From the NCBI GenBank assembly GCA_000092065.1, contig CP000591.1: 64,000 nucleotides of DNA. One strand, 5' to 3'. Both the position numbers and the translations under genes were made by a program. The stretch comes from Ostreococcus lucimarinus (taxonomy: Eukaryota). Shown one piece after another: positions 16,139 to 64,000 of this stretch. The first letter of the stretch is position 1. The number at the start of each line of letters is the position of its first letter. Below the pieces are notes generated by a model. The model worked only from the letters and a program-made list of their open reading frames with translations, was not told where the DNA came from and ran no database searches.

Positions 16139-16208
16139 CGCCGCGAGCCGAGCGTTCGACCGATCGACGCGCGCCGTCGTCGCGCGAGCGCAAACCTCCG
16201 CGCGCGCG

Positions 16209-16254: not shown

Positions 16255-16366
16255 TATTCACACGCAAAAGTATTCCTACTAAAAACCCGCGCGTCGACCG
16301 CGCCGCGCTCGCCCCGCGCCCTAACGCGTCTCTTCGGTCTCTCGGTCGCCCGACGACTTCCGGCCC

Positions 16367-16582
16367 TCACGCGTCGTCCACGCGCTCGAGCGTGTTATAC
16401 CTCAGCAATTTCTCGATCAGATCGACGTGACACATCACCATTCGTCGACAGCAGTACCGATTCAGCCCGAGCGCGTCCAGCGCGTCGCGCTCGCTGTAGT
16501 CCGCCTGCAGCAGGTCGAGGTACGTGTCCCACTTGTTCCCGATCACCTTCCCGCACGTGAAGCATCGCACGGGAATGATCAT
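16367..16582 (-). CDS. RPB10: DNA-directed RNA polymerases I/II/III subunit RPABC5 (Rpb10/RpoN)
   Basis: Internal ATG (aa 81) of ORF 16367..16822. [67 protein letters not shown] is a near-exact match to the conserved 70-aa Rpb10 family (CxxC...CC zinc bundle). Confidence 0.9.
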
Positions 16583-16944
16583 CGCGCGTCGTCGCGGCGC
16601 GACGGACGGCGACCGCGCGCGCGACGACGCGTCGCGAAGTGCGATCGAGCGCGAGGCGGCGCGAATCGTCGACGACGCGATTCGCCCGCGCGTCGCCTCG
16701 CCGATGCGGGACGAGCGCGGGACGACGCGCGGGACCGAGCCCGCGCGCGTCGCGCGACCGGCGACGCGCTTGAGCGCGCGCGCGCGACCGCTGACGAAGG
16801 TTTTGAGGATCGAATTGATCAAGAGGCTCGATCGGTCGACGCGCGCGGTCGACGACGCGTTCGCGCGGTACGCGCGAAAGCTCGGGCGGTTGTTCGACGC
16901 GCCGGCGAACGGGAAGTGAGCGGACCGCGGCTCGACGACGTGCG

Positions 16945-18189
16945 ATGGAGGCGGACGACGCGGCGGCGGCGCGACGGCGAGGCGACGACGACGAAGCCGC
17001 GCGGCTGTACGCGGCGCGGCTGGGAGACGCGCGCGCGTCGTCGACGACGCACGTGCGGTACGCGCTCGCGGCGAAGGCGTGCGGACGCGCGGCGAGCGAC
17101 GCGGCGGCGTTCGAGGCGACGCTTCGTCAGGGACTCGAGCGAGCGATGCGCGAGGCGGCGGAGGACGGCGTCGAAGACGTCGGCCGGGACGCGCGCGCGC
17201 GCGCGATCGGAGGGCAGTTGGCGCTGAGTCTGTGTCAACGAGGGGCGAACGAAGACGCGAGCGATCTGTTGGAGTTTTTGGGGTACTCGCGAAGGCTTTC
17301 CGAGGAGGTGTTGAGGTACGCGGAGGAGGGCGCGCGCGAGCGAGCGCCGGAGGACGTCGCGCGCGTCTACGACGACGCGCTGGACGCGCGCGCGCTGCGG
17401 TTTCTCGGCGACGCGTTCGCGAGACGCGGCGCGTCGACGTTTTGGATCGAGCACGATTACTACGCGCCGGAGACTGGATTCTTTTCGTACGTGCACGACG
17501 TGCCGTCGCGGAGAGAGAATAAGATGGACGCCGTCGTGGACATGGTCAAAGACGTCGCGTCGCGCGCGTTTCCGGGCGTGAAACGCGCGAGGTACGCCGA
17601 GTGGTGGGCGCACTCGCGTCCGCACACCGACGGGCACCAACTCCACTTCGATTCGCACGACGAAGGGCTGGGCGAGGTGAGGCATCCGATTTGTTCCGCC
17701 GTCGTCTTCGTCGACGGATGTTGCGGCGGGCCGACGCTCGTGACGAATCAAAAGGACACGAGCGCCGAGCTCGCGAGCCGCGCGTGGCTCGTGTACCCCA
17801 AAACCGGGAGAGTCGCCGTTTTTAACGGCGACTATCTTCACGGCGTGGTTCCGGGACGCGTCGCGGACGACGGGTTCGATCCCGAGTTCGCGTCGCGCCG
17901 GCGAATCACGCTCATGATTTCGTTTTGGGAAGACACGGACGTGCACCACTCTTGGACGCCCGCGGGAAGCGCGCGACCGTTCCCTCCGCGAGACGCCCCG
18001 GGCGTCTCGTGGCGTTCGCGTTTCGATTTCGCCGCCGACGACGACTTCGCCGCCGAAGCCGCCGTCGGCGTGGAGGTCCTCCCCGTCGTCGTCGAGCGCC
18101 CGTGGGATCGCGTGCGCCGCGACGACGGCGACGACGACGACGACGCGTCCGCGCTCCCCGCCTACGACGACTGTTTTCAAGGCTTTTGA
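16945..18189 (+). CDS. 2-oxoglutarate/Fe(II)-dependent oxygenase superfamily protein (prolyl-hydroxylase-like fold) with an acidic C-terminal tail.
   Basis: True ATG at 16945. HxD...H facial-triad spacing: [10 protein letters not shown] ... [10 protein letters not shown], with the typical surrounding strands ([21 protein letters not shown]). The antisense ORF 16819..18366 is an Arg-rich shadow. Confidence 0.5.
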
Positions 18190-18200
18190 TTCGCTCGCGT

Positions 18201-18205
18201 TGTAA
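18201..18205 (+). promoter_or_regulatory. TGTAA, candidate poly(A) signal 12 nt after the oxygenase stop.
   Basis: tgattcgctcgcgtTGTAAcaaaaatc directly downstream of the stop at 18187-18189. Confidence 0.3.
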
Positions 18206-18265
18206 CAAAAATCAAACCAGCGCGCGAGCCGCCGCTCGACGTCACATCGCCCCGCGAGCGTCGAC

Positions 18266-52403: not shown

Positions 52404-52656
52404 GTCGCTCGACGCGCGCCGCGCGACGCGCGACGCGCGCGACGCCGCGCGGTGATTTGTACGGCGTCGATCCAACGGCCGACGGCGGTCGACGACGCCG
52501 CACACGACGACGCGACGCACGGTCGAGCCGAGGCGACGCGCGCGCGAAGGACGCGCCGAGGACGCGCCCGTCGCGCGCGAACGCCGCGAATCGACGCGCG
52601 CGCGAGGGAGATCGACGACGCGAGGGCGTTGAATTTGAAGGATTGGATTCGTCGAG

Positions 52657-54330
52657 ATGAATTCTGAATTCACGCCGGAAAACACGCGCTCGAACGCGCT
52701 GTTCGCGTCGGACGCGGCGCTGGACGCGGTGTCGACGCCGGGCGGCGACGCGCCGCGCGATGGGTTCGAATTCGAGGCGCTGAAAGACCCGAGGATCGAT
52801 TGGGGGGCGATCGCGCGGTGCGACTCGAGAGACGCGCGGCGACGACGCGATATCGACGCGCTGGAGAGCGTGCTCGAGGCGTGCGTGCGAGCGGACGTGG
52901 ACAGCGTGACGAATCAAGACATGTGCGAACCGAAACGGGGGCGGGAGCTGACGAAATTGCTGCAGATGTTGGTGGAATATTTGTTGCACGTGCAGGAGGC
53001 GCTGAGCGAGGGCAAGGCGAAGGCGGAGCGAGACGCGGAGGGGTGGAAGGATCGGGCGAGGACGGAGCGAGATGAGGCGAGAAAATCCGCGAGGGAGTTA
53101 AGGCTGGCGATGGAGGCGCACGAGGCGGAGTTGATCGCGGTTGCGGCGGAATACGCGAAGAAGAGGAATAATCCGGATAACGCCGAGCTCGAGGACGCGC
53201 GCAGGCGAGGGGAGTCGATGGCGGCTGAACGCGCGGCGAAAGACTTGGAAAAGCGATTGCGCGAACAAAGAGAGCTTTTCGATAGTGCCGTCGATCGCAT
53301 GCGCGCGGCGCACGCGGAGGCGCAGGCGGAGGCCGCGCGCGAGTTGTCGGCTCGAAAGGCGGAGCTCGCGTCGGCGCGCGCGCAGTACGTGGCGTCATCG
53401 ACGGAGTCCACGAAGGAGGCGAATAGGATGGTCGCTGACGCACAAGCGCTCATTCGTGAGGCACGCGAGAAGGCGGAGTTGGAAAAGTCCAACGTCGCGC
53501 GCGTGCGCTCCGAGCTCAACGCTGCGGTGGAGGCGACTCAAAGGCACAAGCGTTCGTTGGTCGACGTCAAGTCGGAGCTCACGCGACTCAAGGAAGATTT
53601 CAAATTCGAACACGAGTCGAACGCCGAGTTACGAAAAGCACTAGAGCGCCGCGACGAAGAGCGCAAGTTGATGCGCGAACAAATTGAGCGTCTCCACGGC
53701 AAGCAGAAATCGTCGATGACGGAGGAAATGGCCGAGTTGACGAACATGCGAGAACTGGCAAAGAACAACTACGCCGAAATCGAACGCCTGAAGCGCGAAA
53801 ACGAAGTGCTTCGCGAGGATAAGAATGCACAATCCACTTGGGTCGCGGAGGAAAAGAAGCGTTGGGTGTCGGCGAATGAGCAAATCTTACAAGCCGAGTT
53901 GACAGAGAAGGACAACGCCATCGCTCAGTTGCGCGAAGAGATTTCGCAATTGAGAAACGACATCGCCACGGAGCGTTCGCGCAAGATGATCACGATTAAA
54001 CCAATCATCGCAGAGTACGAGGCTCGAGCGCAAGCTGCGCCGCCCGTGGCCCCCAAACCCGCGGTGAAGGCAGCGAAAGCGCGCAAGACGCTCGAGCCCC
54101 CGCCGAGCGACGTCCAAGACATGGATGGGGCGCTCCACGCCGCCATGCTTGATCTCGACGTCGACTTGGACGCGGTCGCCGAGGCTGGTTTGGACGACGC
54201 CACGTTCCAGGAAGCTATGGCGAAGTTCGAAGCGGTTCAAATGCAAGACGTACCGAAGGAGTTGCGCGCAAAGTATGCGTTGTCGCGCGCTAAGATTCAA
54301 AAGGAACTCGACGGCGTCGCGGTTCGTTGA
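52657..54330 (+). CDS. Coiled-coil protein with a DZIP1/Iguana-like N-terminal domain (candidate cilium/basal-body protein)
   Basis: True ATG at 52657. N-terminus FEFEALKDPRIDWGAIARCDSRD...IDALESVLEACVRADVD...LTKLLQMLVEYLLHVQEAL resembles the Dzip-like N domain (F.F...IDW..I...D...LE..L...KLL.L.QL.IEYLL..Q). The remaining 400 aa is continuous heptad coiled coil. Moderate-to-weak call. Confidence 0.4.
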   Translation: MNSEFTPENTRSNALFASDAALDAVSTPGGDAPRDGFEFEALKDPRIDWGAIARCDSRDARRRRDIDALESVLEACVRADVDSVTNQDMCEPKRGRELTKLLQMLVEYLLHVQEALSEGKAKAERDAEGWKDRARTERDEARKSARELRLAMEAHEAELIAVAAEYAKKRNNPDNAELEDARRRGESMAAERAAKDLEKRLREQRELFDSAVDRMRAAHAEAQAEAARELSARKAELASARAQYVASSTESTKEANRMVADAQALIREAREKAELEKSNVARVRSELNAAVEATQRHKRSLVDVKSELTRLKEDFKFEHESNAELRKALERRDEERKLMREQIERLHGKQKSSMTEEMAELTNMRELAKNNYAEIERLKRENEVLREDKNAQSTWVAEEKKRWVSANEQILQAELTEKDNAIAQLREEISQLRNDIATERSRKMITIKPIIAEYEARAQAAPPVAPKPAVKAAKARKTLEPPPSDVQDMDGALHAAMLDLDVDLDAVAEAGLDDATFQEAMAKFEAVQMQDVPKELRAKYALSRAKIQKELDGVAVR

Positions 54331-54361
54331 AATATGTATTAAAGTCTCATATCAATCTCGT

Positions 54362-56080
54362 CTAAAGCTCGCAAAATTCACCCGTCTCCTCGGCAATCGA
54401 CTGCTCCGTGCGACGGACGATTTCAATCAAATCTTCTCCGCCGATCGCGCCGTAACGGAGGCAGTGCGTCTCGACCATGACGTTCGTCGCGTCGACGACT
54501 TCGCGCGAATCCTTACCGAACGTTCGCCGCGCGTTGTTCGCCAACATTGTGCTCTGTTTGCACGCCGCGAATCCACCGGCATCCACCGCGCTCAAATCCT
54601 CTATGATCGTCTTAACGAGCGCGTGCTTCATCTCGCCCGCTCCTGTGACCGAAAGCGCGAGCGAAAGAGATTCGTACATCGAGTAGCACGACATGCGCGC
54701 CATGGCGAGCTGCGCGCGACTGAGATTGAGCGCCGCGAGGCGACTCTCGTACCACCCTCGAAGCTCGATCAACGGGTTCACGTTCGGCACCGTCTTGCCC
54801 TTCGTTTTCTTCATCTCCGCCAACTCTTCCTTGAAATCCTTGAGCACGGGCTTGAGCTTGCGCTTGAGCTCGTTGACCGCGCACGTAATCGGCCCGGCGC
54901 CCTCATCGTTTTCTTCCGCCTCGTCGGCTTTCTTTTCCTCGCTCACGTCGCCCGTGGATTCGAAAGCGCATCGCGCGCAGTTGCACATGTACCCGCGTCG
55001 ACTGGCGAACGCGTCGCGGTCTTTCTTCGGCATGAGCGTGTCGTAGTACTTCATCGTAATCTCCGCCCCCGCCGGGAGATTTTGCGAGGCGAAGACGAGC
55101 ATGATTTGCCCGACGTTGATGCGATGGCAATTCGGCGCGCACGAGTGGTTGATGAAGCTCGGCAGCGGCCAGACGCCGCACAGACGGCGCCCAGAGATGG
55201 CGCAGTTGGCGACGACTTTCGGGATGAACGCCAGTTCTTCCGGGCTCTCGGGCGCGGGTGCGTTTTCCTTATTCGCCGCGCTGATGTGCTTGCGAAACAC
55301 GCTCATCTCCGGCGCGTCTTTTTGTTCATCCTCGCTCGACGCCGGCAGAGCCTTGAGAATCGCCCAATCGGCCGGGTGCGCGCGCGCAGCCTCGTAAAGA
55401 CCGCGGACGAGGTTTTGTTCCACCGTCTTGCCGAACGACGCCGAGCTCAGCGGGCTCTGCACCATGAGCAAATCTCCCGCCGCGACGGCGCTCGTCGTCA
55501 CCAAGCCGCGACGACCGTCGGAGAGCTTGGACACTCGAACCACACCGATGTAATCCGCACAACGGCGGAAACTCGCACCCATGCGGTTCAAATACAACGC
55601 TCCGAGATCGTACGCCCCCGTGAACGCTTGCGCCGTGAGCATATCGCATTCGAGCTTGACTTTTTCCAGCGTCGCCCGAACCGCCGCGTCCTCCGGCGCG
55701 TCGGCGAGACGCGATCCCTCATCTGCCGTCTTCGCCGCATCCACGTATCGCGCCATCCCGTTCAACGCCATGCTCTTCTTATAAATCGCCTTCAGTTCCA
55801 TCGCCTTATCCCCCTTCGAGCACTCCAACGCCTTCGTCGCGCACTCCAACGCCTTCTCGAACACTCGCGCTCGCAAGTAGCACTCCGCCTTGTTCGCGTA
55901 CGCGCTCGCGTCCGACCCATTCAACTTCAGCGCCGCGTCATACGCCGCGATCGCGCCGAGATAATCCCCCTTCGCAAACTTTTCGTTTCCTTCCACTCGA
56001 ATCGCGTCCGCTTCGTCCACTTTCTGCGCCTTCTTCGACTTCGGCAGCGCCGCGCCCATGCCGCCCAGTCCGAACGGCAT
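54362..56080 (-). CDS. TPR + SET domain lysine methyltransferase-like protein
   Basis: Internal ATG (aa 367) of ORF 54362..57178. N-terminal TPR triplet (ADAIRVEGNEKFAKGDYLGAIAAYDAALKLNGSDASAYANKAECYLRARVFEKALECATKALE). SET core (GRRGLVTTSAVAAGDLL...FINHSCAPNC...MLVFASQNLPAGAEITMKYYD) and a post-SET Cys cluster (GYMCNCARC). The upstream part of the track ORF is Ser/Ala/Arg shadow. Confidence 0.7.
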   Translation of the reverse strand: MPFGLGGMGAALPKSKKAQKVDEADAIRVEGNEKFAKGDYLGAIAAYDAALKLNGSDASAYANKAECYLRARVFEKALECATKALECSKGDKAMELKAIYKKSMALNGMARYVDAAKTADEGSRLADAPEDAAVRATLEKVKLECDMLTAQAFTGAYDLGALYLNRMGASFRRCADYIGVVRVSKLSDGRRGLVTTSAVAAGDLLMVQSPLSSASFGKTVEQNLVRGLYEAARAHPADWAILKALPASSEDEQKDAPEMSVFRKHISAANKENAPAPESPEELAFIPKVVANCAISGRRLCGVWPLPSFINHSCAPNCHRINVGQIMLVFASQNLPAGAEITMKYYDTLMPKKDRDAFASRRGYMCNCARCAFESTGDVSEEKKADEAEENDEGAGPITCAVNELKRKLKPVLKDFKEELAEMKKTKGKTVPNVNPLIELRGWYESRLAALNLSRAQLAMARMSCYSMYESLSLALSVTGAGEMKHALVKTIIEDLSAVDAGGFAACKQSTMLANNARRTFGKDSREVVDATNVMVETHCLRYGAIGGEDLIEIVRRTEQSIAEETGEFCEL

Positions 56081-56486
56081 CGCTCTCGCGCGCGCGCGTC
56101 GACGCCCTCGCCTCGAGTCTCGCTCGCGTCTGCGTCGCGCGTTCGATCGCGCGTCAGTCATCGCGCCGCTTCGTCGCGCGCACCGTTCGCCGTTCCGCGT
56201 CGCGTCGCCGTCGCCGTCGCCGTCGCGCGCGATATCTCGCGCGCTGTATTCGTTATCCACAACGTCGCGCGCGTTCGAGCCTCGCGCGTCGCGCGTCGCG
56301 CGCCTCGCGCGTCGCTCGCGCGCGCACCCGCTCGATGATTCGCTCGCGCTCGCGCTCGACCTCGCGTTCGCGCTCGTCGCGCGCCGCGCGTCGTCGTCGT
56401 GTGCCGTCGCGCGCGTCGTCGACTGTCGCGAAAGATCGTCTCGATTCGTATGGGTAAACAGTGAGACACCCAGCACACGTCCGCAC

Positions 56487-57224
56487 ATGTCCGCGCCCGT
56501 CGACGTCGCGCGCGCCGCCGCCGCGCGCGTTCGCGCGGACGCGTCCAGCACCTCGCGCGCGGGCTCCGGCGTCGTCGTGCGCCACCGCGGCGTCGCGTGC
56601 GTGCTCACCGCCGCGCACGTCGCGTCGTTCGCGGGCGCGAAGAATGCGCTTCGCGTCGAGCTCGCGAGCGGCGCCGCGCGGCGCGGGCGCGTCGTCGGCG
56701 TGCACGACGCGCTCGACCTCGCCGTCGTGTACCTCGACGGCGACCTCGACGGCGCGGCGACGATGGAGCCGGGCGAGGCGCGCGTCGGCGACGAGGCGCG
56801 CGCGCTGGGGACGGCGCAGCGGTACGCGGCGGCGACGGCGGCGTGCGCGGACGCGATCCGAGGACGACGCGAGACCGGACGCGTGTTGAAGATACACCGC
56901 GATGACCGCGGTGACGACACGCACGCGATGCACGACGCGCGCGTGCTGGCGGGACAGTCGGGCGGGGCGCTCGTGCGCGAGACGGATGGGAAACTGTTGG
57001 GCGTGCACAGTTTCGGCGACGCGTTTTGGGGCGGGAGCAGGGACGTGTGCGTGCTGGTGAACGCGGCGACGCTGGACGCGATCGAGATCGCGCGCGATGG
57101 CGTCGATCCCGAGGTGTACGCGACGGCGCGGGTGAACGCGATGATTTTTCGTTCGAGCGACGAGGCGCTGAAGCGCATGGCGCCCGAGTTGTCGGCGAAG
57201 CAGCGCGCGTCGTGGATCTTTTGA
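56487..57224 (+). CDS. Trypsin-like (S1/chymotrypsin-fold) serine protease domain protein, small (245 aa)
   Basis: Internal ATG (aa 144) of ORF 56058..57224. Catalytic-triad context in order: GSGVVVRHRGVACVLTAAHV (His), DLAVVYLDGD (Asp), VLAGQSGGALVRETDGKLLGVHSFG (GDSGG-type Ser). The antisense ORFs are Arg-rich shadows. Confidence 0.5.
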   Translation: MSAPVDVARAAAARVRADASSTSRAGSGVVVRHRGVACVLTAAHVASFAGAKNALRVELASGAARRGRVVGVHDALDLAVVYLDGDLDGAATMEPGEARVGDEARALGTAQRYAAATAACADAIRGRRETGRVLKIHRDDRGDDTHAMHDARVLAGQSGGALVRETDGKLLGVHSFGDAFWGGSRDVCVLVNAATLDAIEIARDGVDPEVYATARVNAMIFRSSDEALKRMAPELSAKQRASWIF

Positions 57225-57244
57225 TCGGTCGCGTCGATCGGTGA

Positions 57245-57249
57245 TGTAA
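57245..57249 (+). promoter_or_regulatory. TGTAA, candidate poly(A) signal 21 nt after the protease stop.
   Basis: tcggtgatGTAATactagtgattgttg directly 3' of the stop at 57224 (the TGTAA reads gaTGTAAtac). Confidence 0.3.
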
Positions 57250-57310
57250 TACTAGTGATTGTTGTTTGTTGATTGCGCTAAACGATGCGGCGAGGTGCCG
57301 CGCTAGGAGG

Positions 57311-58384
57311 TCACGCGTCTTCGTCTCGCGCGCCGTACGCGGGACGCACGGCGTAATTTTCTAGATACGCGACGTCGGCCAAATATAACCCGTGCGCGGG
57401 CGCCATTTGCGGCGCGCGCGCGACGTCTTTCGCTTCGAGAAGCTCCTGAACGTCTTTCACGGTGAGGTCGTTCGCGCCGACGGCTTTGAGCGCGCCGGCG
57501 AGGAGACGGACTTGATGGTAAAGAAAACTGGGCGCGGCGACGGCGATGGAAATCTTTTGCTTCGTACCGCGCGCCTCCGCGGCGGGCCACTCCGTGAGCT
57601 CTTCCTTGACGTCGATGGACGTCAGCGTGCGCACGGGCGAGCTCGCTTGACACCCGTTCGCGCGAAAAGAACTGAAATCGTGCGTGCCCGTCAGCGCCGC
57701 CGCCGCGTCTCGCATCGCGTCCACGTTTAAACGCCCGTCGCACGTCTGATATCGACGCACCGACTTCACCTTATCCCCGCGCTCGCTATTATTCACCGCG
57801 CGCACGTACCACGCGCGCTCGGCGTCGAACAAGCTCCCCCCGTCGTCGCGTTCGCCGACCAATATATCGTATCTATACCGCCTCGCCACCGCGTCGTGCC
57901 GCGCGTGAAATTTTGGATTCATCTCATCCACCCTGACGCACTCCGTCACCCGCACCGCCGCGCCGAGCTTTCTCAAGTGATAATTCACCCCTCTTCGCAC
58001 GCTCGCGCCGTCGTGCGGTTCGACCGTCGTCCCATCCTTCGTCGTTCTCGCGAAGTCGAAGTGCGCCGAGTTTCGCAGCGCGTGCACGCCGACGTCCGTC
58101 CTCGAGCTACCGACGCACTCGATCGCTCCGCGCGCGCCCGTGAAAGCCGTGAGCGCTTCATCCAGCGCGCCTTGCACCGTCGCCGCGACGCCGCACTGCC
58201 TCTGGAAGCCGCGGAAGCGCGCGCCGTCGTACTCCAAAAAGGCGAGGTAGCGCGGGACAGCGGCGGCGATTCGCTTCGACGCCACCATCTCCGCGCTCTG
58301 CGCGCTCACGGGACGCTTGCGAGACGCGTCGGGGTCGTTCGAGCGGCTCGGGCGTCGACGAGCGACGGTTGCGCTCTCGGGCAT
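57311..58384 (-). CDS. TRUA: tRNA pseudouridine synthase A (TruA / PUS1 family)
   Basis: YLAFLEYDGARFRGFQRQ...GSSRTDVGVHALRNSAHFD (catalytic-Asp RTDxGVHA motif), ...HDFSSFRA..., LYHQVRLLAG. Start placed at the internal ATG (aa 48, MPESATVARRRPS). The first ATG is 58525. Confidence 0.8.
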   Translation of the reverse strand: MPESATVARRRPSRSNDPDASRKRPVSAQSAEMVASKRIAAAVPRYLAFLEYDGARFRGFQRQCGVAATVQGALDEALTAFTGARGAIECVGSSRTDVGVHALRNSAHFDFARTTKDGTTVEPHDGASVRRGVNYHLRKLGAAVRVTECVRVDEMNPKFHARHDAVARRYRYDILVGERDDGGSLFDAERAWYVRAVNNSERGDKVKSVRRYQTCDGRLNVDAMRDAAAALTGTHDFSSFRANGCQASSPVRTLTSIDVKEELTEWPAAEARGTKQKISIAVAAPSFLYHQVRLLAGALKAVGANDLTVKDVQELLEAKDVARAPQMAPAHGLYLADVAYLENYAVRPAYGARDEDA

Positions 58385-58499
58385 CGAGGTGTGAAGCGCG
58401 AGTCGACGCGCGGGACAAATGCGGGACGCGACGGACGAGGGACTTTGACATCTGTGTATCGTGAATGTCATCGAAAACGCGATGTTTCGCGCGTGTTTA

Positions 58500-59963
58500 C
58501 TATTCGTACGCGCTGTCGGATGCACCGCACACGGCGACGCGGACGACGGCGGAATGTTCGCCGTTACTTATGGCGTCGAATTCGTCGCAAATGCGACGGC
58601 GTTCGTCTTCGCTCAATCTCGAACGCAAACCCACGGAGAGCATGTCTAGCTCCGGAGCGTCTGGCGTGAAAGGGAACGTGTTGAATAAGTCAACGAGCTT
58701 GTTGAGCTCGAGCATGGTGGCGACGCTGTCGTTACTTCGAAGTCCCGCTCCGGCTTGAACGACGGCGCCGCGCACGCGAACGGCGACGTCCGCCATGACG
58801 ATGGAGACGCACTTGTGCGCATCTAGGCTCAGATCATCCGAAAGACCGACTAAAAATGGTCCAACAGGAGTGTTAAATGCGCTCGTCGCGCCCGCTTGGC
58901 CGCGCATGGCGTCCGTGACGGCGAAATCAGCGGCGGCTCGAAAGATGGCGACTCGCGCGCTCTCCGGTCCGACCGACTTTACCGCGCACCCTCGCTCGCC
59001 CGCCGCCGCGCACGCGGCGCGAAAATCGGCGATATCATCCGCACTGAATCCCGCGCCGCTGACTCGCTTCGCCGCGAGCGTTGCTCCTTGCGCTTTCGCG
59101 ACTTGAATCAGCGCCTCCTTGCGTCCCGGCGGCACGTACTGCGGCGACGGCGGCGTCCACCACGCCGGCAACGCCTTCGCCGCGCCGCTCGTTTTCTTCT
59201 CGTTTCCCCGCGCCTTCGTCGCGGATCCCGGCTTTACGTTCGCGTCTTCGGGAACGTCGTCCAAAGCCCCCTCTAAACGTTTGCGTTCGTCCCGAAACCG
59301 ATCCGCCGTCGCCGGCACCCAAACCTGCCGCCCGCCGAGACTGCGGTCGCCGACCCACCGCCCCGGTCCCGTCGCCCCCGGCGGCGGCGCCCGACGACCC
59401 ACGCCCTTGAACGCGCTCCCGATCGCTCGAAGCGGGTTCTCGCGATTGATGACCTTGAGCGCGATCCACGCGCACGCGAACAGCGTCCCCCACGCCGCCG
59501 CCGCCCGCCCGTACGCCGACGCCGGGTTCGGTCGCTGCGGCCTGTACACCGTCGCGTACGTCCCGGGCGCGCCGACGCGCGCCGGAACGTCCGCGCGCGG
59601 CCTGAACGCGCCCGCGTCGCGCGGCAGCAGCGCGTCGACGGCTTTTTGCGACGCCTTTTTCACTTTTCGCTGCACTTTTCGGATAAATCGTTGCGCGTCG
59701 CTCCGTCGCTCCGGACGCGCGCGCGCGGCGTCGAGCGCGCGCGTCGCCGGCGCGACGTGCTTTTCGACGTAATCGTCCATCTCGCGCTCGTAATCGCGCG
59801 CGCTGGACGATCGTTTCTTGGCTTCTTTCTCGCGAAGGCGATTCTTGGGGCCGGCGCGCGGGACGACGTCGACGCGACCGGGACGGGCGCGGCGTCGCGC
59901 GAGCGTCGCGCGCGCGCTCGCGACGCGCGCGCCGAAGCGTGGATTCGTCGCGCGAAGCGACAT
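58500..59963 (-). CDS. Hypothetical protein (basic N-terminus, one predicted TM helix, conserved-looking C-terminal domain)
   Basis: True ATG at 59963. Hydrophobic span WGTLFACAWIALKVI. The C-terminal 200 aa is not low-complexity (AIFRAAADFAVTDAMRGQAGATSAFNTPVGPFLVGLSDDLSLDAHKCVSIVMADVAVRVRGAVVQAG...LELNKLVDLFNTFPFTPDAPELDMLSVGLRS). No family recognised. Confidence 0.35.
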   Translation of the reverse strand: MSLRATNPRFGARVASARATLARRRARPGRVDVVPRAGPKNRLREKEAKKRSSSARDYEREMDDYVEKHVAPATRALDAARARPERRSDAQRFIRKVQRKVKKASQKAVDALLPRDAGAFRPRADVPARVGAPGTYATVYRPQRPNPASAYGRAAAAWGTLFACAWIALKVINRENPLRAIGSAFKGVGRRAPPPGATGPGRWVGDRSLGGRQVWVPATADRFRDERKRLEGALDDVPEDANVKPGSATKARGNEKKTSGAAKALPAWWTPPSPQYVPPGRKEALIQVAKAQGATLAAKRVSGAGFSADDIADFRAACAAAGERGCAVKSVGPESARVAIFRAAADFAVTDAMRGQAGATSAFNTPVGPFLVGLSDDLSLDAHKCVSIVMADVAVRVRGAVVQAGAGLRSNDSVATMLELNKLVDLFNTFPFTPDAPELDMLSVGLRSRLSEDERRRICDEFDAISNGEHSAVVRVAVCGASDSAYE

Positions 59964-60051
59964 CTCGGTCGCTCGCGCGAGACGCGCGCGATGCAGTGAA
60001 GGGCGCGCGAGTCGGTTTCGTCTTTGATGCTACAAGCCGCGGCGCGCGCGC

Positions 60052-60732
60052 TTAAATTTCCAATTTGGACGTCGTGCGCTCGAACGAGGCGTCGCTCAGC
60101 GGCGTTCCACCGTCGCCCGCGCTCGAAAACGCCGCTATCGGCGACACCGTCGCGCCGTCGAACCTCCCGCCGCCGTCAAACTTCCCCGGCGTCTCGTCCA
60201 CGCTTTGGTCGAGCAGCCAATCGCTCCCGTTCAACGACGCCTCCAATTTCGCCTCCATCGCCGCGATGTCGCTCATGACGCCCATCGACGCCACCTCATT
60301 CTTAATCATTATCTCCACATCGCTCACCCCGAGATCGGCGGCGATGTTCTCCGTCTTGACCGTCAATTCCATCGCTCGAACGCGCGTCTCCGCGTCGTCG
60401 TCGCCGAGCGCCGCGCGCTTCGCCCTCGCCAGGACGCCTCGCAGCCCGCGCTCTGGGGACGGCGTCCCCAGTTCGCGCATGTACGGCTGCTTCAGCAACG
60501 CCGCGACCGTGTCCAGGTCTCCCTTTCGAGTCTCGGGTCGCCGCGCGCGTCGTCCGAGGAGAAACGCGCCGACGAGCGACGCGCCGACGAGGATGAATTG
60601 CGTCGCGCTGATGTCGTCGATTTCGTCGCGGATTTCTTTCGTTTTCTCGCGCACGCGCGCGCGGGCGTCGTCGGCGACGCTTCGCGCGGGTTTCTTTCGC
60701 GTCGGCGCGCGCGCGCGGTCGAAGACGCCCAT
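60052..60732 (-). CDS. Hypothetical single-pass membrane protein
   Basis: True ATG at 60732. TM helix ISATQFILVGASLVGAFLLG followed by a soluble acidic domain (VSDVEIMIKNEVASMGVMSDIAAMEAKLEAS...). No family recognised. Confidence 0.35.
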   Translation of the reverse strand: MGVFDRARAPTRKKPARSVADDARARVREKTKEIRDEIDDISATQFILVGASLVGAFLLGRRARRPETRKGDLDTVAALLKQPYMRELGTPSPERGLRGVLARAKRAALGDDDAETRVRAMELTVKTENIAADLGVSDVEIMIKNEVASMGVMSDIAAMEAKLEASLNGSDWLLDQSVDETPGKFDGGGRFDGATVSPIAAFSSAGDGGTPLSDASFERTTSKLEI

Positions 60733-60792
60733 CGCCGCGCGATCTCAGCGTCGGCGAATGACGACGACGATTGGCTGGTCGGTCGAGACTTT

Positions 60793-62241
60793 TTACGACG
60801 CCGCCGAGCGAACGCGACGCGGAAACGGGACGAAGGACTCGTGATCGGACTTGTCCTTGCCGGGCAGCGGCGGCGACGAGGGAATCCCAAAGTCGCGAGA
60901 TCGAAACGCGCGGAATTCGCGCTTGATGGCGGCGTACGGTTTGTTCTCCATCGCCCGACGCGCGCGGGGCGGGAGACGGGATAAAACGTCGGCGTCGAAG
61001 GAGGCGCACAGCTCTCGCGCGCACAGGGCGGAGGACGCCGCGCCGGAGGCGCGACACTTTTTGCCGTAGCCGTGGAGGAAACCGATGGCGCCGAGAAGGC
61101 GCTCGACGCGGCCGGATGCGATGTCGACGGCGCCGACGGCGTCGTTGAACTCAAACGTCGATCGCGACGGCGCGACGTACGTCACGCACGTCGGCGACGC
61201 GACGCGATCGCCGTCGACGACGGCGCGATAGGACGAGAGATCGTCGCTCGGTGCGTCGACGGCGACGCATCGTGGTTCGACCCGGTCGTCGGATTGTGAG
61301 TCGTCCAATCGCGCTCGTTTGACGATCGCGCGTTTCAACGCGAGAGCGACGACGCGTTTCGTCTCTTCGGCGCGCTCTTCGCGAACGTTTGGAATGGACA
61401 CGCAGATCGACCGTGGCTTGATCGCTTCGCGCGCGACGAGGCGCATGAGCGTGCCCTGTAAACCATGCATCTGCCAGCGACACATTTTATCCGAACAGCT
61501 CAAACAAAACGATGGCGCGCCTCTGCCCGGCTTCCATCGCACGGCGCCGACTTCTTGCGTCGGGCGATCGCGTTCGGGATCCGCGCCGCCGCCGCCACCG
61601 CCGCCACCGTTCATGTCCGTCAATATTTTCGCACCCGTCACCCCCGCACCTCCGCCCGCACCCCCCGTCGTCTTCGCTCGCTTCACCGTCGCCGTCGAAG
61701 CCTCCGCGCCGCCGTCGCTCCGCCTCGCCTCGCTCGGCAACTCGAACACGCTCGCGTCGCCGCACGGCGACTGACTGCAATACGCGTGCACCTCCACCCC
61801 CGCGCGCATTCGCACCCGATTCCCAGCGCCTAATATCTCATCCCACGCCGTCTCTTCGTCGCACCCAGCGCCGCGTTCGCGCGTCACCTCGAACACGCTC
61901 GCTCGTCCGTCCCTCGCCTCGGCGTACTCGCGCTGCAACCACCGCGTCAACGCGCGTCTCGCCAACACCTCCGCGTGACAGTCCCCGATCGCGCCCCCGT
62001 CGCGCGCGCGGTTCGCCATCGGCACGCACTTCGTCCCCGTCGCGAACGCCGCGACGTAGCACGTCCCTCGCGCGCTCGCCGCGTCGTTTCGCTCGACGAT
62101 GCAAAAAGCGCACAGCGTCGTGTACGCATCCTTCGACGTTTTCTCGCGTCCGCGCGCGTCGTACGTCGCCAGCGCGCACGCGCGCACGACTGCGGCGACG
62201 CGTTCGACGTCGTCGACGTCGTCGACGGCGTGCGCGCGCAT
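60793..62241 (-). CDS. ADAT1: tRNA-specific adenosine deaminase 1 (ADAT1/Tad1, ADAR-type deaminase domain)
   Basis: True ATG at 62241. A_deamin motifs in order: GTKCV, AIGDCHAEVLARRAL (zinc-ligand HAE), YCSQSPCGDASV (PCG), FCLSCSDKMCRWQMHGLQG (SCSDK). Gly-rich insertion. Confidence 0.8.
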   Translation of the reverse strand: MRAHAVDDVDDVERVAAVVRACALATYDARGREKTSKDAYTTLCAFCIVERNDAASARGTCYVAAFATGTKCVPMANRARDGGAIGDCHAEVLARRALTRWLQREYAEARDGRASVFEVTRERGAGCDEETAWDEILGAGNRVRMRAGVEVHAYCSQSPCGDASVFELPSEARRSDGGAEASTATVKRAKTTGGAGGGAGVTGAKILTDMNGGGGGGGGADPERDRPTQEVGAVRWKPGRGAPSFCLSCSDKMCRWQMHGLQGTLMRLVAREAIKPRSICVSIPNVREERAEETKRVVALALKRAIVKRARLDDSQSDDRVEPRCVAVDAPSDDLSSYRAVVDGDRVASPTCVTYVAPSRSTFEFNDAVGAVDIASGRVERLLGAIGFLHGYGKKCRASGAASSALCARELCASFDADVLSRLPPRARRAMENKPYAAIKREFRAFRSRDFGIPSSPPLPGKDKSDHESFVPFPRRVRSAAS

Positions 62242-62294
62242 GCGCGCGCGCGAGACTGCCGATTCGCGCGCGCGTCTCGTCGCGCGCGTCGCCG

Positions 62295-62328
<34 letters not shown>

Positions 62329-62609
62329 AGTCGAGCGCGTTCGAGCGCCCTCACTGTTCGCGTATACGCCATGTGTCCGAACATCGCGCGCGCTTTTCGC
62401 GTTTCGCGCCGCGCGCGTCGTATTGCGCGACGACGCGTCCCATCGATCGCGACGCGCGATCGCTAAGCGCGATCGCGACGCGCGCGACCGACCGACCGAC
62501 CGCCGTTACATGCGCCAACACCATAAATGAGGTTGCGCATCGCATCTTTCGCCAGATCGCGACGCGCGTCGCCCGCGACGCCGCGAACGAGGACGGCGAA
62601 CGACCGGCG

Positions 62610-64000
62610 ATGACGCGCGTCGAGCGCGTCGCGCTGCTCGGACGCGCGCGCGACGTCGAGGACGGCACGCTCGGCGCGGGAGGCGCGTTCTTCGGGACGA
62701 ACACCGCGCGCGACGGCGACGGCGACGACGACGGCGCGCGAGAGCGCGCGCGCGAGCGCGGCGGCGCGCGGCGAGGACGGGGGACGATCGCGGTGGGAGC
62801 GATGTGCGTCGCGATCGGGGTCGCGATCGGATCGGTGACGACGTCGACGCGGGAGGGAGGACGGACGACGGGCGACGTCGCGAGCGTCGGCGCGAACGCG
62901 CCGAGCGGAGCGACGAGTCGCGCGGCGCGGGGCGCGGAAGAGGCGAATTTGGGCGACGCGACGTCGTTGGCGATCGCGAGCGTTCCCGCGGATTCGTGGA
63001 TGTCGTTCTCGACGGGGAAAGTGCGAAAGCGAAAGTATCCGGATTCGTTTTATTACGTCGTCGCGCCGGAGGCGGACGAGGAGGTCGGGTATTTGGGCGC
63101 GCCGAGCGACTGGCCGACCGGGGATCGGGTGACGGTGGATCTGCACACCGGGTGCTCGCCGATCGACGCTCTGCCGTTCCAGCGTCCCGGGTTTGATTTC
63201 GACACCGTTCAGGCCCGCTTTGTGAGCAAGAAGCTCAGCATGGAGTTCATGTTTGAGGACTCGCAGCCGATGACCAAAGTCGGGTGCGGACATTTCCGGG
63301 CCACGGTAGAGCTCTCGAAAGGATGGGAGTTTGGGTTCTATCTTCATGCGAATGGCGACGACAGCGACGAGAACACGATGCTCGACATCGGGTGCGAAAC
63401 CGCGGTGCCGGGCGCCAACAACACCAAGTGTCCGGATTTCGCTTCACCGGCGATGCTCGCGACTTCGGAGTGCACGGACAAATTCGTGTGTAATCATGGT
63501 CTGTACACGTTCTGGAATCGAAGATACGATGGCGAACAAACGTCGTTCCTGTGGGGGGCTTGCGGAAGCGAGTGTCCGCACCAGGACTGCGGCCACATGT
63601 ACTGCGCGGCGAACGAGCGCGTGCAGAACCAAGCGTGCGCGTCGTGTCCGCCTGGGACGACGAACGATGCGGGCGATAAGAACGTCGGCGCCGATACGCA
63701 GTGTGATCCGGTCATCTGCGGAGCGCACATGCGCGTGCAAGATCACAACTGCGTGCAGTGCGTCGCCGGTAAGGAGAACGAAGCCGGCGACGACGCCTCA
63801 CAAAGTAACACCGAGTGCGACGCCGTCATTTGCGAGCCGAATCATCACGTGGCGGGCAATGTGTGCACGGCGTGTCCCGCCGGTCACGCGCACGCCGGCG
63901 GCGACGTGCAGCACGGCCCTGATACGTCGTGCGACGAAGTGCTTTGCCACACGAACGAGCGCGTTCTCGGCCACCAGTGCGTGGCGTGTCCTCCGGGCTC
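62610..64000 (+). CDS. Type-II-like membrane protein with tandem ~37-aa cysteine-rich repeats, 3'-partial (runs off the window end). Not in the ORF track.
   Basis: I translated frame 0 myself. ATG at 62610 gives MTRVERVALLGRAR..., a TM span GTIAVGAMCVAIGVAIGSVTT, and a Cys-containing globular region (CGHFRATVELSKGWEFGFYLHANGDDSDENTMLDIGCE...CPDFASPAMLATSECTDKFVCNHGLYTFWNRRYDGEQTSFLWGACGSECPHQDC). At least four repeats follow with spacing C-x2-[NH]-x-[RH]-V-x4-C-x2-C-x2-G-x3-AGD-x6-T-x-CD-x-V-x-C (CAANERVQNQACASCPPGTTNDAGD..., CGAHMRVQDHNCVQCVAGKENEAGDD..., CEPNHHVAGNVCTACPAGHAHAGGD..., CHTNERVLGHQCVACPPG). The frame is still open at 64000. The track's 62099..62530 (+) stop fixes the local coordinates. 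Confidence 0.5.
   Translation, partial: MTRVERVALLGRARDVEDGTLGAGGAFFGTNTARDGDGDDDGARERARERGGARRGRGTIAVGAMCVAIGVAIGSVTTSTREGGRTTGDVASVGANAPSGATSRAARGAEEANLGDATSLAIASVPADSWMSFSTGKVRKRKYPDSFYYVVAPEADEEVGYLGAPSDWPTGDRVTVDLHTGCSPIDALPFQRPGFDFDTVQARFVSKKLSMEFMFEDSQPMTKVGCGHFRATVELSKGWEFGFYLHANGDDSDENTMLDIGCETAVPGANNTKCPDFASPAMLATSECTDKFVCNHGLYTFWNRRYDGEQTSFLWGACGSECPHQDCGHMYCAANERVQNQACASCPPGTTNDAGDKNVGADTQCDPVICGAHMRVQDHNCVQCVAGKENEAGDDASQSNTECDAVICEPNHHVAGNVCTACPAGHAHAGGDVQHGPDTSCDEVLCHTNERVLGHQCVACPPG

What the first reader, a model, noticed from the sequence alone, without database searches (positions are those of the whole stretch)
62610..64000. Untracked gene running off the window end: membrane-anchored protein with tandem cysteine-rich ~37-aa repeats
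Plus-strand frame 0 is open from before 62523 to 64000, so it is absent from the ORF track, which needs a stop. From the ATG at 62610 it encodes a short basic/acidic cytoplasmic tail, a TM anchor (IAVGAMCVAIGVAIGSV), a globular Cys-containing domain and then at least four tandem repeats. The repeats share the pattern C-x2-N/H-x-R/H-V-x4-C-x2-C-x2-G-x3-AGD-x5-6-T-x-CD-x-V-x-C (CAANERVQNQACASCPPGTTNDAGDKNVGADTQCDPVIC / GAHMRVQDHNCVQCVAGKENEAGDDASQSNTECDAVIC / EPNHHVAGNVCTACPAGHAHAGGDVQHGPDTSCDEVLC / HTNERVLGHQCVACPPG...). This resembles the extracellular Cys-repeat modules of the GCC2/GCC3, TNFR or furin-like type found in surface receptors. The gene is lower in GC than its neighbours, and the repeat count and full length are unknown because the gene runs off the window.
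Basis: seen in the sequence. Interest (0 to 1): 0.5.

Follow-up and report, generated by a model that had tools for sequence, protein, structure and literature searches.

The report
Algal membrane protein with cysteine repeats
The open frame at the window's end is a real gene of a tiny marine green alga; it encodes a membrane-anchored protein with a sugar-binding-like domain and a stiff rod of cysteine-rich repeats, and it belongs to a widespread but undescribed protein family of unknown function.

Summary
The + strand frame is open to base 64000. The first in-frame ATG is at 62610. The product has a charged tail, one membrane span, a Cys-containing domain and tandem four-Cys repeats. The period is exactly 38 aa, not about 37.

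Near-identical metagenome contigs carry the ORF 184 nt further, giving 524 aa and 5 repeats. This is a minimum, because short-read assemblies demonstrably collapse the array: a homologue in a long-read contig has about 95 units.

The repeats only resemble TNFR, ELAPOR1 and ephrin-receptor modules. Every Pfam score is below cut-off, and hhalign gives 26% probability. They are not GCC2_GCC3, TNFR_c6 or furin-like members.

- Its N-terminal tail carries a conserved acidic dileucine motif, in 39 of 50 members against 5.2 expected.
- The repeat also occurs in bacterial lipoproteins.

I read it as an adaptor-sorted type II membrane protein that binds a ligand at the cell surface or in an endomembrane compartment. 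Function is inferred, not shown. Interest is moderate.

The parts
62242..62609 (.). Intergenic region and 5' leader, shared with the divergently transcribed ADAT1-like gene (60793-62241, - strand). No in-frame ATG.
   Evidence: There is no Met in frame between 62241 and 62609. Compared with the 99%-identical contig L001, this stretch carries a 26-bp indel (62444-62469), a 3-bp indel and 10 substitutions in 62525-62545. The 1455 bases from 62546 to 64000 carry only 4 substitutions. The ATG that the gene caller used upstream in L001 is ATA in the window.
62610..64000 (+). Coding sequence, 463 codons and cut by the window end, of a type II single-pass membrane protein. The full length is at least 524 aa in near-identical contigs.
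   Evidence: P0090 and P0091 match the window protein and end ...IRYYGLG*. dN/dS values and GC3 are.
62610..62780 (+). N-terminal cytosolic tail (aa 1-57), rich in R, D, E and G.
   Evidence: Positive-inside rule: 6 K/R before the TM against 2 after it. The tail is disordered in the AF2 model.
62622..62639 (+). Acidic dileucine-type motif E-R-V-A-L-L (aa 5-10), matching [DE]xxxL[LI].
   Evidence: E, R, L, L and G are invariant in P0001, P0002 and P0003. The motif is present in the N-terminal region of 39 of 50 family members, against 5.2 expected from shuffles.
62781..62837 (+). The single transmembrane signal-anchor (aa 58-76, GTIAVGAMCVAIGVAIGSV).
   Evidence: It is the only 19-aa window with Kyte-Doolittle above 1.6 (2.04). 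A hydrophobic segment sits at the same place in homologues.
62838..63110 (+). Low-complexity linker rich in S, T, A and G (aa 77-167). The membrane-distal part is conserved only with P0002.
   Evidence: pLDDT is below 50. dN/dS of tail plus linker is 0.46. Alignment A1.
63111..63602 (+). Conserved domain of about 155-164 aa with 8 invariant Cys. It has a CBM20-like beta-sandwich core plus a Cys-rich C-terminal extension. This is the family-defining module.
63417..63425 (+). The only N-glycosylation sequon (N-N-T, aa 270-272), inside the conserved domain.
   Evidence: Sequence scan.
63603..63716 (+). Cys repeat unit 1 (aa 332-369): CAANERVQNQACASCPPGTTNDAGDKNVGADTQCDPVI.
   Evidence: hmmsearch with the repeat profile on the six-frame translation gives E 1.2e-29.
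63717..63830 (+). Cys repeat unit 2 (aa 370-407): CGAHMRVQDHNCVQCVAGKENEAGDDASQSNTECDAVI.
63831..63944 (+). Cys repeat unit 3 (aa 408-445): CEPNHHVAGNVCTACPAGHAHAGGDVQHGPDTSCDEVL.
63945..64000 (+). Cys repeat unit 4, first 18 residues (CHTNERVLGHQCVACPPG...), cut by the window end.
   Evidence: In L001 and P0090 the unit continues and is followed by a fifth, degenerate unit and a TAG.

Best explanation
This is a real, intron-less protein-coding gene of a GC-rich picoprasinophyte (Mamiellophyceae-like). It encodes a type II single-pass membrane protein.

Shown:
- The N-terminal tail of about 57 aa faces the cytosol and carries a conserved acidic dileucine motif (ERVALL).
- One TM segment anchors the protein.
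- A disordered Ser/Thr/Ala/Gly linker follows.
- Next comes a 155-aa domain with eight invariant cysteines and a CBM20-like beta-sandwich core.
- Last comes a rod of at least 5 tandem 38-aa units with four cysteines each. The predicted hairpins resemble TNFR, ELAPOR1 and ephrin-receptor cysteine-rich modules.
- Domain and repeats are under purifying selection. Each repeat unit is conserved position for position between homologues.

Inferred:
- The disulfide-rich part lies outside the cell or in the lumen of an endomembrane compartment.
- The dileucine motif is read by clathrin adaptor complexes (AP-1, AP-2 or AP-3), so the protein is sorted or recycled between the Golgi, endosomes or vacuole, and the plasma membrane.
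- The CBM20-like domain and the non-equivalent repeat units bind a ligand, possibly a glycan.

On this reading the protein acts as an adhesion, recognition or cargo receptor rather than an enzyme.
For: Gene and reading frame:
- The open frame, the ATG at 62610 and the polymorphic non-coding upstream region are.
- GC3 > GC1 > GC2.
- dN/dS is 0.08 for the domain and 0.17 for the repeats.
- Seven independent contigs encode the same protein.

Topology:
- There is a single hydrophobic segment, with 6 K/R before it against 2 after it.
- 29 of the 30 cysteines lie after the TM.

Sorting motif:
- It is invariant in the three closest homologues.
- It occurs in 39 of 50 family members against 5.2 expected.
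- A type I subgroup instead ends in Y-G-A-I/V after a C-terminal TM.

Central domain:
- 66 family representatives and 8 invariant Cys.
- A confident model.

Repeats:
- A strict 38-aa period and a clear consensus.
- pLDDT of 80-90, mostly two-stranded hairpins.
- The best PDB fold hits are ELAPOR1 (E 4.6e-3) and 4-1BB (probability 0.97).
- Paralogues carry genuine TNFR_ELAPOR1_6th and Ephrin_rec_like modules at the same position.
- Units are 79% identical unit for unit between genes, but only 32-53% identical within one protein.

Other family members attach only extracellular-type modules to the same domain: Kringle, C-type lectin, FG-GAP_2, DUF285 and RCC1.

ELAPOR1/inceptor is a precedent for a receptor with cysteine-rich domains that associates with AP-1, AP-2 and AP-3 (PMC11659164).
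Against: - There is no expression, localisation or binding evidence for this gene or any family member. No paper mentions the O. tauri member.
- All similarities to characterised families are below significance at sequence level.
- A CBM20-like fold does not prove carbohydrate binding, and I did not map the aromatic binding residues.
- A dileucine-type motif can be non-functional. The motif here is followed by G rather than an acidic or polar residue.
- The fifth unit of the short allele is degenerate (PYQHY in place of PxGxx) and ends abruptly. The window allele could therefore be a truncated form.
Confidence: 0.6

Rival explanations
1. It is an endomembrane sorting or cargo receptor, resident in the TGN, endosomes or vacuole, and working like ELAPOR1/inceptor or plant vacuolar sorting receptors. 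It is not a cell-surface protein. The Cys-rich luminal part would bind cargo and the dileucine tail would direct it to the vacuole or lysosome.
For: - The conserved [DE]xxxLL motif.
- The best PDB fold hit of the repeat region is ELAPOR1.
- Pfam's only hit, below threshold, is TNFR_ELAPOR1_6th.
- Inceptor co-precipitates with AP-1, AP-2 and AP-3 and sorts ligand to lysosomes (PMC11659164).
- From general knowledge, acidic dileucine motifs direct tonoplast proteins in plants.
Against: - The ELAPOR1 match is weak (E 4.6e-3, TM-score 0.11). There is no MRH domain, and the topology is type II rather than type I.
- A homologue with about 95 units, roughly 3,900 aa, is hard to reconcile with a shuttling cargo receptor.
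- Partner modules in paralogues (lectin, kringle, FG-GAP, DUF285) are typical of surface proteins.
Confidence: 0.2
2. It is mainly a structural surface fibril or coat protein. The repeat rod is the functional part, acting as a spacer or protective layer. The true array in the source organism is much longer than 5 units, and the short form is an assembly collapse.
For: - The L002 homologue has about 95 tandem 114-bp units (TRF 18.1 + 70.6 copies). Its array ends exactly like the 566-aa short-read ORFs, which shows that collapse occurs.
- P0111 has an intermediate count.
- P0093, more than 90% identical to the window protein, follows a different path after unit 4, with an intact unit 5 running into a sixth.
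Against: - Seven independent contigs, including ones of 108 kb and 97 kb, give the same 5-unit end, followed by a unique AT-rich 3' region and an unrelated gene.
- The five units are too diverged at DNA level for TRF to detect, so the collapse would have to involve additional near-identical copies that have not been seen.
- Unit-specific conservation (79% against 32-53%) argues for specific surfaces rather than a generic spacer.
Confidence: 0.15
3. The open frame is not a functional gene. It is either a GC-driven chance ORF or a decaying, truncated pseudogene copy of a longer family member.
For: - High-GC DNA gives long ORFs in several frames, for example the 294-aa ORF on the opposite strand at 62463-63347.
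- The last unit of the short allele is degenerate, and P0092 is a frameshifted variant.
Against: - Strong purifying selection (dN/dS 0.08-0.17).
- Invariant cysteines across 66 clusters.
- A codon-position GC pattern typical of coding sequence.
- Only 4 substitutions in 1455 coding bases, against dense changes and indels just upstream.
- Confident AF2 models.
Confidence: 0.03

Closest known systems
TNFR-type and ELAPOR1-type cysteine-rich modules (Pfam PF23091 TNFR_ELAPOR1_6th; 4-1BB/TNFRSF9 CRDs; ELAPOR1/inceptor)
   Same: - Tandem modules of about 40 aa, disulfide-stabilised and hairpin-based, forming an elongated ectodomain.
- PF23091 is the only Pfam model that scores at all.
- The best PDB fold hits are ELAPOR1 and 4-1BB.
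- A paralogue (P0059) has a PF23091 module above cut-off directly after the same central domain.
- Like inceptor, the protein combines a Cys-rich ectodomain with an adaptor-type sorting signal.
   Different: - The score of 9.1 bits is far below the 33.2 cut-off.
- There are four Cys per unit with a strict 38-aa period, and a conserved N-x-A-G-D-D-A-S-G-x-D-T loop that I do not know from TNFR CRDs.
- The topology is type II rather than type I.
- There is no MRH domain, death domain or TRAF motif.
Ephrin_rec_like / GCC2_GCC3 (PF07699)
   Same: It shares the C-x2-C-P-x-G-[TY] hairpin motif. Genuine PF07699 modules sit at the equivalent place in paralogues P0049, P0059 and P0067.
   Different: There is no PF07699 hit even at E<=10. 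hhalign probability is 26% over 15 columns only. Unit length and Cys spacing differ.
CBM20 starch-binding domains (PF00686; glucoamylase, CGTase, laforin, STBD1)
- The one segment hhalign aligns, HFRATVELSKGWEFGFYLH against LWYVTVTLPAGESFEYKFI, is the same strand pair.
   Different: - There is no sequence-level significance (hhalign probability 6.5%; no Pfam hit in 33 members).
- The domain has four disulfides and a Cys-rich extension of about 60 aa that CBM20 lacks.
- It is membrane-tethered in the secretory pathway of an alga whose starch is plastidial.
- Conservation of the glucan-binding aromatic residues has not been established.
Ostreococcus tauri OT_ostta09g00975 (UniProt A0A090MA47), 'uncharacterized protein'
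   Same: It is a member of the same central-domain family, with the same layout: ERAPLL motif, TM, linker, domain.
   Different: It is only 319 aa and ends right after the central domain, with no Cys repeats. It is about 40% identical in the domain.
Repeat-bearing bacterial lipoproteins of marine Myxococcota (for example a Polyangiales MAG protein; P0004-P0012)
   Same: They carry the same 38-aa four-Cys unit, 43-49% identical to the window's units, in tandem arrays of 4-8.
   Different: They have lipobox signal peptides and are fused to FG-GAP_2, RCC1 or DUF1554-like domains. They sit in a bacterial genomic context. They lack the central domain, the type II anchor and the dileucine motif.

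Membership tests
Ephrin_rec_like / GCC2_GCC3 (PF07699) | Score at or above the Pfam gathering threshold (23.1 bits). | tested here: not met
   hmmscan of the window protein at E<=10 lists no PF07699 hit. P0001-P0003 give none at E<=0.1. The paralogues P0049, P0059 and P0067 do pass, at 36-39 bits.
Ephrin_rec_like / GCC2_GCC3 (PF07699) | Profile-level similarity to genuine family members. | tested here: not met
   hhalign of the repeat profile A4 against A5 (Ephrin_rec_like/TNFR_ELAPOR1 segments of three paralogues) gives probability 26%. Only 15 columns align, around CxxCPxGT.
TNFR cysteine-rich domains (PF00020 TNFR_c6; PF23091 TNFR_ELAPOR1_6th) | Score at or above the Pfam gathering threshold. 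| tested here: not met
   PF23091 scores 9.1 bits against a 33.2 cut-off for the window protein. The best score in any repeat protein is 28.7 bits, in P0004. PF00020 is not listed.
TNFR cysteine-rich domains (PF00020 TNFR_c6; PF23091 TNFR_ELAPOR1_6th) | An elongated ladder of disulfide-linked hairpin modules of about 40 aa (fold level). | tested here: inconclusive
TNFR cysteine-rich domains (PF00020 TNFR_c6; PF23091 TNFR_ELAPOR1_6th) | A canonical CRD has six cysteines forming three disulfides (general knowledge). | tested here: not met
   Each 38-aa unit has exactly four cysteines, at positions 1, 12, 15 and 34. The pairing could not be read because the tool returns no model coordinates.
Furin-like cysteine-rich region (PF00757) | A match to the Pfam model. 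| tested here: not met
   No hit at E<=10.
CBM20 starch-binding domain (PF00686) | A match to the Pfam model, or profile-level sequence homology. | tested here: not met
   No PF00686 hit in the window protein or in any of 33 domain sequences at E<=1. hhalign of A3 against the A. niger glucoamylase SBD gives probability 6.5%. I recalled that sequence from memory and verified it as PF00686 at 125 bits.
CBM20 starch-binding domain (PF00686) | The CBM20 beta-sandwich fold. | tested here: met
CBM20 starch-binding domain (PF00686) | Conserved aromatic residues of the two glucan-binding sites (W543/W590 and Y527/Y556 in A. niger glucoamylase; general knowledge). | not tested
   No residue-level structural alignment was available. 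By eye, a near-invariant D-F may correspond to D542-W543, and W590 appears not to be conserved. This is a lead only.
Membrane proteins sorted by acidic dileucine signals ([DE]xxxL[LI]) | The motif is present in a cytosolic segment. | tested here: met
   ERVALL lies at aa 5-10, upstream of the only TM, on the positive-inside side. It is conserved in 39 of 50 family N-termini against 5.2 expected.
Membrane proteins sorted by acidic dileucine signals ([DE]xxxL[LI]) | Binding to AP-1, AP-2 or AP-3, and motif-dependent localisation. | not testable with these tools
   This needs pull-down or yeast three-hybrid assays and LL-to-AA mutants.
Uncurated 'central domain' family (this work; includes O. tauri A0A090MA47) | A domain of about 155 aa with eight invariant Cys and the motifs TxCSP, GEEFGFYLY, DIGC, FYNRxxDG and WGxC. 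| tested here: met
   phmmer finds 66 representatives at E<=1e-3. Alignment A3 shows the invariant columns, and the window sequence has all of them. An HMM built from the family scores the window frame at E 5e-63.

The most novel reading that the evidence does not exclude
The gene belongs to an undescribed class of adaptor-sorted membrane receptors of marine protists. A membrane-proximal, disulfide-locked CBM20-like domain would bind a glycan. It would carry interchangeable distal modules. In this lineage the distal module is a rod of four-Cys repeats whose copy number runs from 5 to about 95 between close relatives. The rod could therefore be a fast-evolving surface fibril involved in virus, grazer or bacterial recognition. 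The repeat unit would have been exchanged horizontally between picoalgae and marine Polyangiales bacteria.
Probability: 0.15. Interest if true: 0.65.

Novelty: new variant of a known kind. Interest (0 to 1): 0.38.

Why it matters
Surface and endomembrane receptors of picophytoplankton are almost unknown. Yet they control contact with viruses, bacteria and grazers in some of the most abundant marine eukaryotes.

This locus gives an entry point to a conserved, unannotated family: 66 clusters at 50% identity, including an O. tauri gene that can be manipulated genetically. The family has a recognisable sorting signal, a new CBM20-like ectodomain and swappable adhesive modules.

There is also a practical warning. 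Short-read assemblies collapse these 114-bp arrays (566 aa against roughly 3,900 aa for the same gene). Gene models and copy numbers for such proteins in metagenome catalogues are therefore unreliable.

Taken alone, the window gene is an ordinary 'hypothetical membrane protein'.

Tried and rejected
Searches that found nothing:
- Pfam on the window protein at E<=10. NCBIfam on the full-length near-identical P0001 and three repeat proteins at E<=1.
- PDB sequence searches with the protein, the domain profile and the repeat profile.
- Pfam on 33 domain sequences, which gave only noise.
- TRF on the L001 gene found no 114-bp DNA repeat, so the units are old and diverged.
- A viral-contig scan with the central-domain profile found no relatives.
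- tblastn for the roughly 330-aa C-terminal domain of P0061 and P0003, downstream of the gene in L001, found nothing. The window-type protein lacks that domain.
- Six literature searches found no paper on the family, the repeat or ostta09g00975. Only ELAPOR1 background was useful.

Searches that were unavailable or uninformative:
- The afdb50 fold library was not available.
- The repeat-profile search of the big protein database scored only 145 candidates, all short fragments. It added one named hit, from Polyangiales.

Organism identification from the ADAT1 neighbour stopped at 'closest named relative is O. tauri, 51% identity'. I did not resolve the genus.

Readings I rejected:
- A GC-driven ORF artefact.
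- The upstream start that the gene caller used in L001; it is ATA in the window.
- Membership of GCC2_GCC3, TNFR_c6 or furin-like families.
- The 'lower GC' of the gene as a meaningful signal.
Full report
**1. The observation**

The + strand frame that contains base 62610 has no stop codon from at least 62241 to the window end. It therefore cannot appear in an ORF list that needs a stop. The first in-frame ATG is at 62610; there is no methionine codon in frame between 62241 and 62609.

From that ATG the product has a tail of about 57 aa rich in R, D, E and G. It has one strongly hydrophobic segment at aa 58-76 (Kyte-Doolittle 2.04). Six K/R lie in the 15 residues before that segment and two in the 15 after it. 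The full-length protein has 30 cysteines, 29 of them after the membrane span.

From aa 332 the sequence repeats with a period of exactly 38 aa. At lag 38, 38 of 94 positions are identical, against a shuffle maximum of 13.2 +/- 1.6, and 0 of 20000 shuffles reach the observed value. The window holds three full units and 18 residues of a fourth.

The remark that the gene is lower in GC than its neighbours is not meaningful. The tail-coding third is 0.725, the domain part 0.59 and the repeats 0.66. The window mean is 0.642 with sd 0.063, and 30% of 500-bp windows are at or below 0.60.

**2. It is a real gene, and where it ends**

Window 52454-64000 is 98.98% identical to a 108-kb Tara Oceans metagenome contig, L001. 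Between 62546 and 64000 the two differ by four substitutions. Just upstream (62444-62545) they differ by a 26-bp indel, a 3-bp indel and ten substitutions. That contrast marks the coding boundary. The ATG the gene caller used upstream in L001 is ATA in the window.

In the called frame GC3 (0.76-0.86) exceeds GC1, which exceeds GC2. Against a 63%-identical homologue (L002), Nei-Gojobori dN/dS is 0.08 for the central domain, 0.17 for the repeats and 0.46 for tail plus linker. The alignment to homologues is continuous, so there is no sign of an intron.

In L001 the ORF runs 184 nt past the window end to a TAG. An AT-rich stretch and an unrelated 167-aa gene follow. Seven independent contigs encode the same end...IRYYGLG*. 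One of them (P0090) carries the window's own L-G variant in unit 4, and one (P0091) was called from the 62610-equivalent ATG at 524 aa. The inferred product is therefore 524 aa with five units. The fifth unit is degenerate (CPYQHY instead of CPxGxx).

**3. Why five units is only a minimum**

A homologue that is 63% identical overall lies on a 1.17-Mb polished long-read contig (L002). It has the same tail, TM and central domain. About 95 tandem 114-bp units then follow, from about 7950 to 18844. TRF reports 18.1 + 70.6 copies and my motif scan found 86. A few frame changes interrupt the array; these may be long-read indel errors.

The array ends ...TNAAGDDASGADTQCV*. That is exactly the C-terminus of the 566-aa ORFs that many short-read contigs give for the same gene (P0002 and others), and P0111 has an intermediate count. 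Short-read assembly therefore collapses this array.

In the window's own 90% cluster, one contig (P0093) leaves the common path after unit 4. It has an intact fifth unit that runs into a sixth before the contig ends. Whether this is a second haplotype or the trace of a longer array cannot be decided here.

Against a collapse: the five units are only 32-53% identical to one another, and TRF does not detect them at DNA level.

The window's units 1-4 correspond one to one with the first units of L002. They are 79% identical across genes, against 32-53% within a gene. So the units are individually conserved and not interchangeable.

**4. The repeat**

From 145 distinct units the consensus is C-x2-N-E-[RH]-V-x4-C-V-x-C-P-[PA]-G-T-T-N-x-A-G-D-D-A-S-G-x-D-T-x-C-D-x3. 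The four cysteines are invariant. V7, G18, G24 and T32 are above 90%; D25 (87%), D31 (84%), G29 (80%) and N21 (71%) are also strongly conserved.

AF2 models the repeat region at pLDDT 80-90, with short hairpins in every unit.

At sequence level nothing curated matches:
- Pfam lists only TNFR_ELAPOR1_6th, at 9.1 bits against a cut-off of 33.2. The best score in any repeat protein is 28.7 bits.
- NCBIfam, run on P0001 and three repeat proteins, has nothing for the repeat.
- The PDB sequence set has nothing, even with a profile.
- hhalign against genuine Ephrin_rec_like/TNFR_ELAPOR1 segments from three paralogues gives 26% probability, over the CxxCPxGT hairpin alone.

At fold level Foldseek finds nothing at E<=1e-3. 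The best hits are ELAPOR1 (4.6e-3), 4-1BB (probability 0.97) and the EphA2 cysteine-rich region.

Membership of GCC2_GCC3, TNFR_c6 or furin-like families was tested and is not met.

The same unit, 43-49% identical, occurs in tandem in proteins with lipobox signal peptides fused to FG-GAP_2, RCC1 or DUF1554-like domains. One such gene sits in a plainly bacterial 210-kb contig, next to PIN/PhdYeFM toxin-antitoxin genes, a sigma-54 activator and Wzy_C. One fragment is from a Polyangiales MAG. The unit also occurs with DUF285 in a protist transcriptome and with reprolysin domains.

**5. The central domain is the family signature**

A full HMMER scan of 1.84 billion representatives with aa 113-331 found 66 proteins at E<=1e-3 and 43 at <=1e-10. 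All match a core of about 155 aa.

The core has eight invariant cysteines and the motifs TxCSP, GEEFGFYLY, DIGC, FYNRxxDG and WGxC. None of 33 members hits a Pfam family.

One member is Ostreococcus tauri OT_ostta09g00975 (A0A090MA47), annotated as uncharacterised. No paper in the library mentions it.

Sequence-level homology to CBM20 is not demonstrable. hhalign gives 6.5% probability, although the one aligned segment is the structurally equivalent strand pair. I therefore call the domain CBM20-like in fold, with four added disulfides and a Cys-rich C-terminal extension. I do not call it a CBM20 member.

**6. Family architecture and the sorting signal**

Most full-length members share one layout: a short N-terminal tail, one TM, a linker, the domain, then variable distal modules. 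Those modules are:
- the 38-aa repeats (P0003, P0039, P0061);
- Ephrin_rec_like, and in P0059 TNFR_ELAPOR1_6th above cut-off;
- Kringle;
- a C-type lectin;
- RCC1;
- DUF285.

In P0051 FG-GAP_2 lies on the N-terminal side of the domain.

Near the N-terminus nearly all carry E-x-x-[PA]-L-L; the window protein has ERVALL at aa 5-10. The pattern [DE]xxxL[LIV] occurs in 39 of 50 N-terminal regions, against 5.2 expected from shuffles.

A minority is type I instead. There the domain precedes a C-terminal TM, and a short tail ends Y-G-A-I/V, which fits the tyrosine signal YxxPhi.

From established cell biology, [DE]xxxL[LI] and YxxPhi are the two classical signals read by the clathrin adaptors AP-1, AP-2 and AP-3. 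That both topologies place such a signal in the cytosolic tail is the strongest functional clue available.

**7. The mechanism I consider most likely**

Shown:
- the gene;
- its topology, as far as sequence can show it;
- the two ectodomain modules;
- purifying selection;
- conservation of the motif.

Inferred:
- The disulfide-rich part faces the outside of the cell or the lumen.
- The tail signal causes adaptor-dependent sorting or recycling.
- The CBM20-like base and the individually conserved repeat units bind a ligand.

On this reading the protein is a receptor or adhesin, not an enzyme. ELAPOR1/inceptor is a functional analogy only. It has cysteine-rich domains, co-precipitates with AP-1, AP-2 and AP-3, and sorts a ligand between the TGN, plasma membrane and lysosomes (PMC11659164).

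Rivals:
- A purely endomembrane cargo receptor.
- A structural surface fibril whose true array is much longer.
- A non-functional or truncated copy. Selection and conservation largely exclude this one.

**8. Organism**

The flanking genes are eukaryotic: ADAT1-like, BRCA2, SET, Toc75-like Omp85. The ADAT1-like neighbour's closest named relative is O. tauri, at 51% identity.

The window's GC of 0.64 and its compact, divergently arranged genes fit a Mamiellophyceae picoalga. No named genome contains this protein. I did not resolve the genus.

**9. Verdict**

The finding is correct as an observation and largely correct as an architectural reading. What is there is a new, uncurated variant of a familiar kind of thing: a modular, cysteine-rich, single-pass membrane protein.

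Three features lift it above a routine hypothetical protein:
- the widespread CBM20-like family with a conserved sorting motif;
- the 5 to about 95-unit range of the repeat array, and its collapse in short-read assemblies;
- the sharing of the repeat with marine myxobacteria.

None of these is backed by experiment, so interest is moderate.

Noticed in passing
L002 6916-18850 (ENA ERZ28548074, contig_20801_pilon, 2-23 kb from the end of a 1.17-Mb contig): A homologue of the window gene carries about 95 tandem 114-bp units, roughly 3,900 aa if read through. The units are organised in higher-order blocks, and a few frame changes interrupt the array. Its neighbours (PAN2, an ion channel, 6PF2K) differ from the window locus, so it may be a paralogue rather than the ortholog.
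   Followed up: partly
L002 18600-18860, compared with P0002 and P0111: The long-read array ends with exactly the C-terminus of the 566-aa ORFs found on many short-read contigs. Short-read metagenome assemblies therefore collapse the array to 6-8 units. Catalogue gene models for such proteins are unreliable.
   Followed up: yes
P0093 (602 aa, 2.5-kb contig; same 90% cluster as the window protein): This is an alternative continuation after repeat unit 4. Unit 5 is intact and runs into a sixth unit at the contig end. It is either a second haplotype or evidence of a longer array in the window's population.
   Followed up: partly
L003 6001-7368 (JGI 3300035633, 210-kb contig); also P0005, P0006, P0007, P0010 and P0306: The same 38-aa four-Cys unit occurs in bacterial lipoproteins with FG-GAP_2, RCC1 or DUF1554-like domains. 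One gene lies among toxin-antitoxin, sigma-54 activator and Wzy genes. One fragment is from a Polyangiales MAG. Horizontal exchange between algae and bacteria is possible.
   Followed up: partly
P0051-P0053, P0060, P0064, P0065 (central-domain family): A type I subgroup places the domain before a C-terminal TM. Its short tail ends Y-G-A-I/V, YGAAR or YGSTV, which fits a tyrosine-type sorting signal in place of the N-terminal dileucine motif.
   Followed up: partly
L004 9950-12120 (ENA ERZ10646672, contig_19450): The repeats of P0003 continue past its called stop in two other frames. They end in a C-terminal domain of about 330 aa that is shared with P0061 and has no Pfam match. The 653-aa model is therefore truncated by frameshifts or introns.
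   Followed up: partly
P0103 = NCBI MAK95759.1: A partial copy of the P0002-type algal protein is deposited as a hypothetical protein of a 'Euryarchaeota archaeon' MAG. This is most likely eukaryotic contamination of that bin.
   Followed up: no
window 60793-62241 (- strand) and 62242-62609: An ADAT1-like tRNA adenosine deaminase gene (PF02137) is transcribed divergently from the gene. Only 368 bp separate the two start codons, and this spacer is the most polymorphic stretch between the window and L001.
   Followed up: partly
window 63603-64000; repeat positions 21-32: The loop N-x-A-G-D-D-A-S-G-x-D-T is the best conserved non-Cys part of the unit. Its acidic residues look like a possible Ca2+ site. 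No tool here could test that.
   Followed up: no
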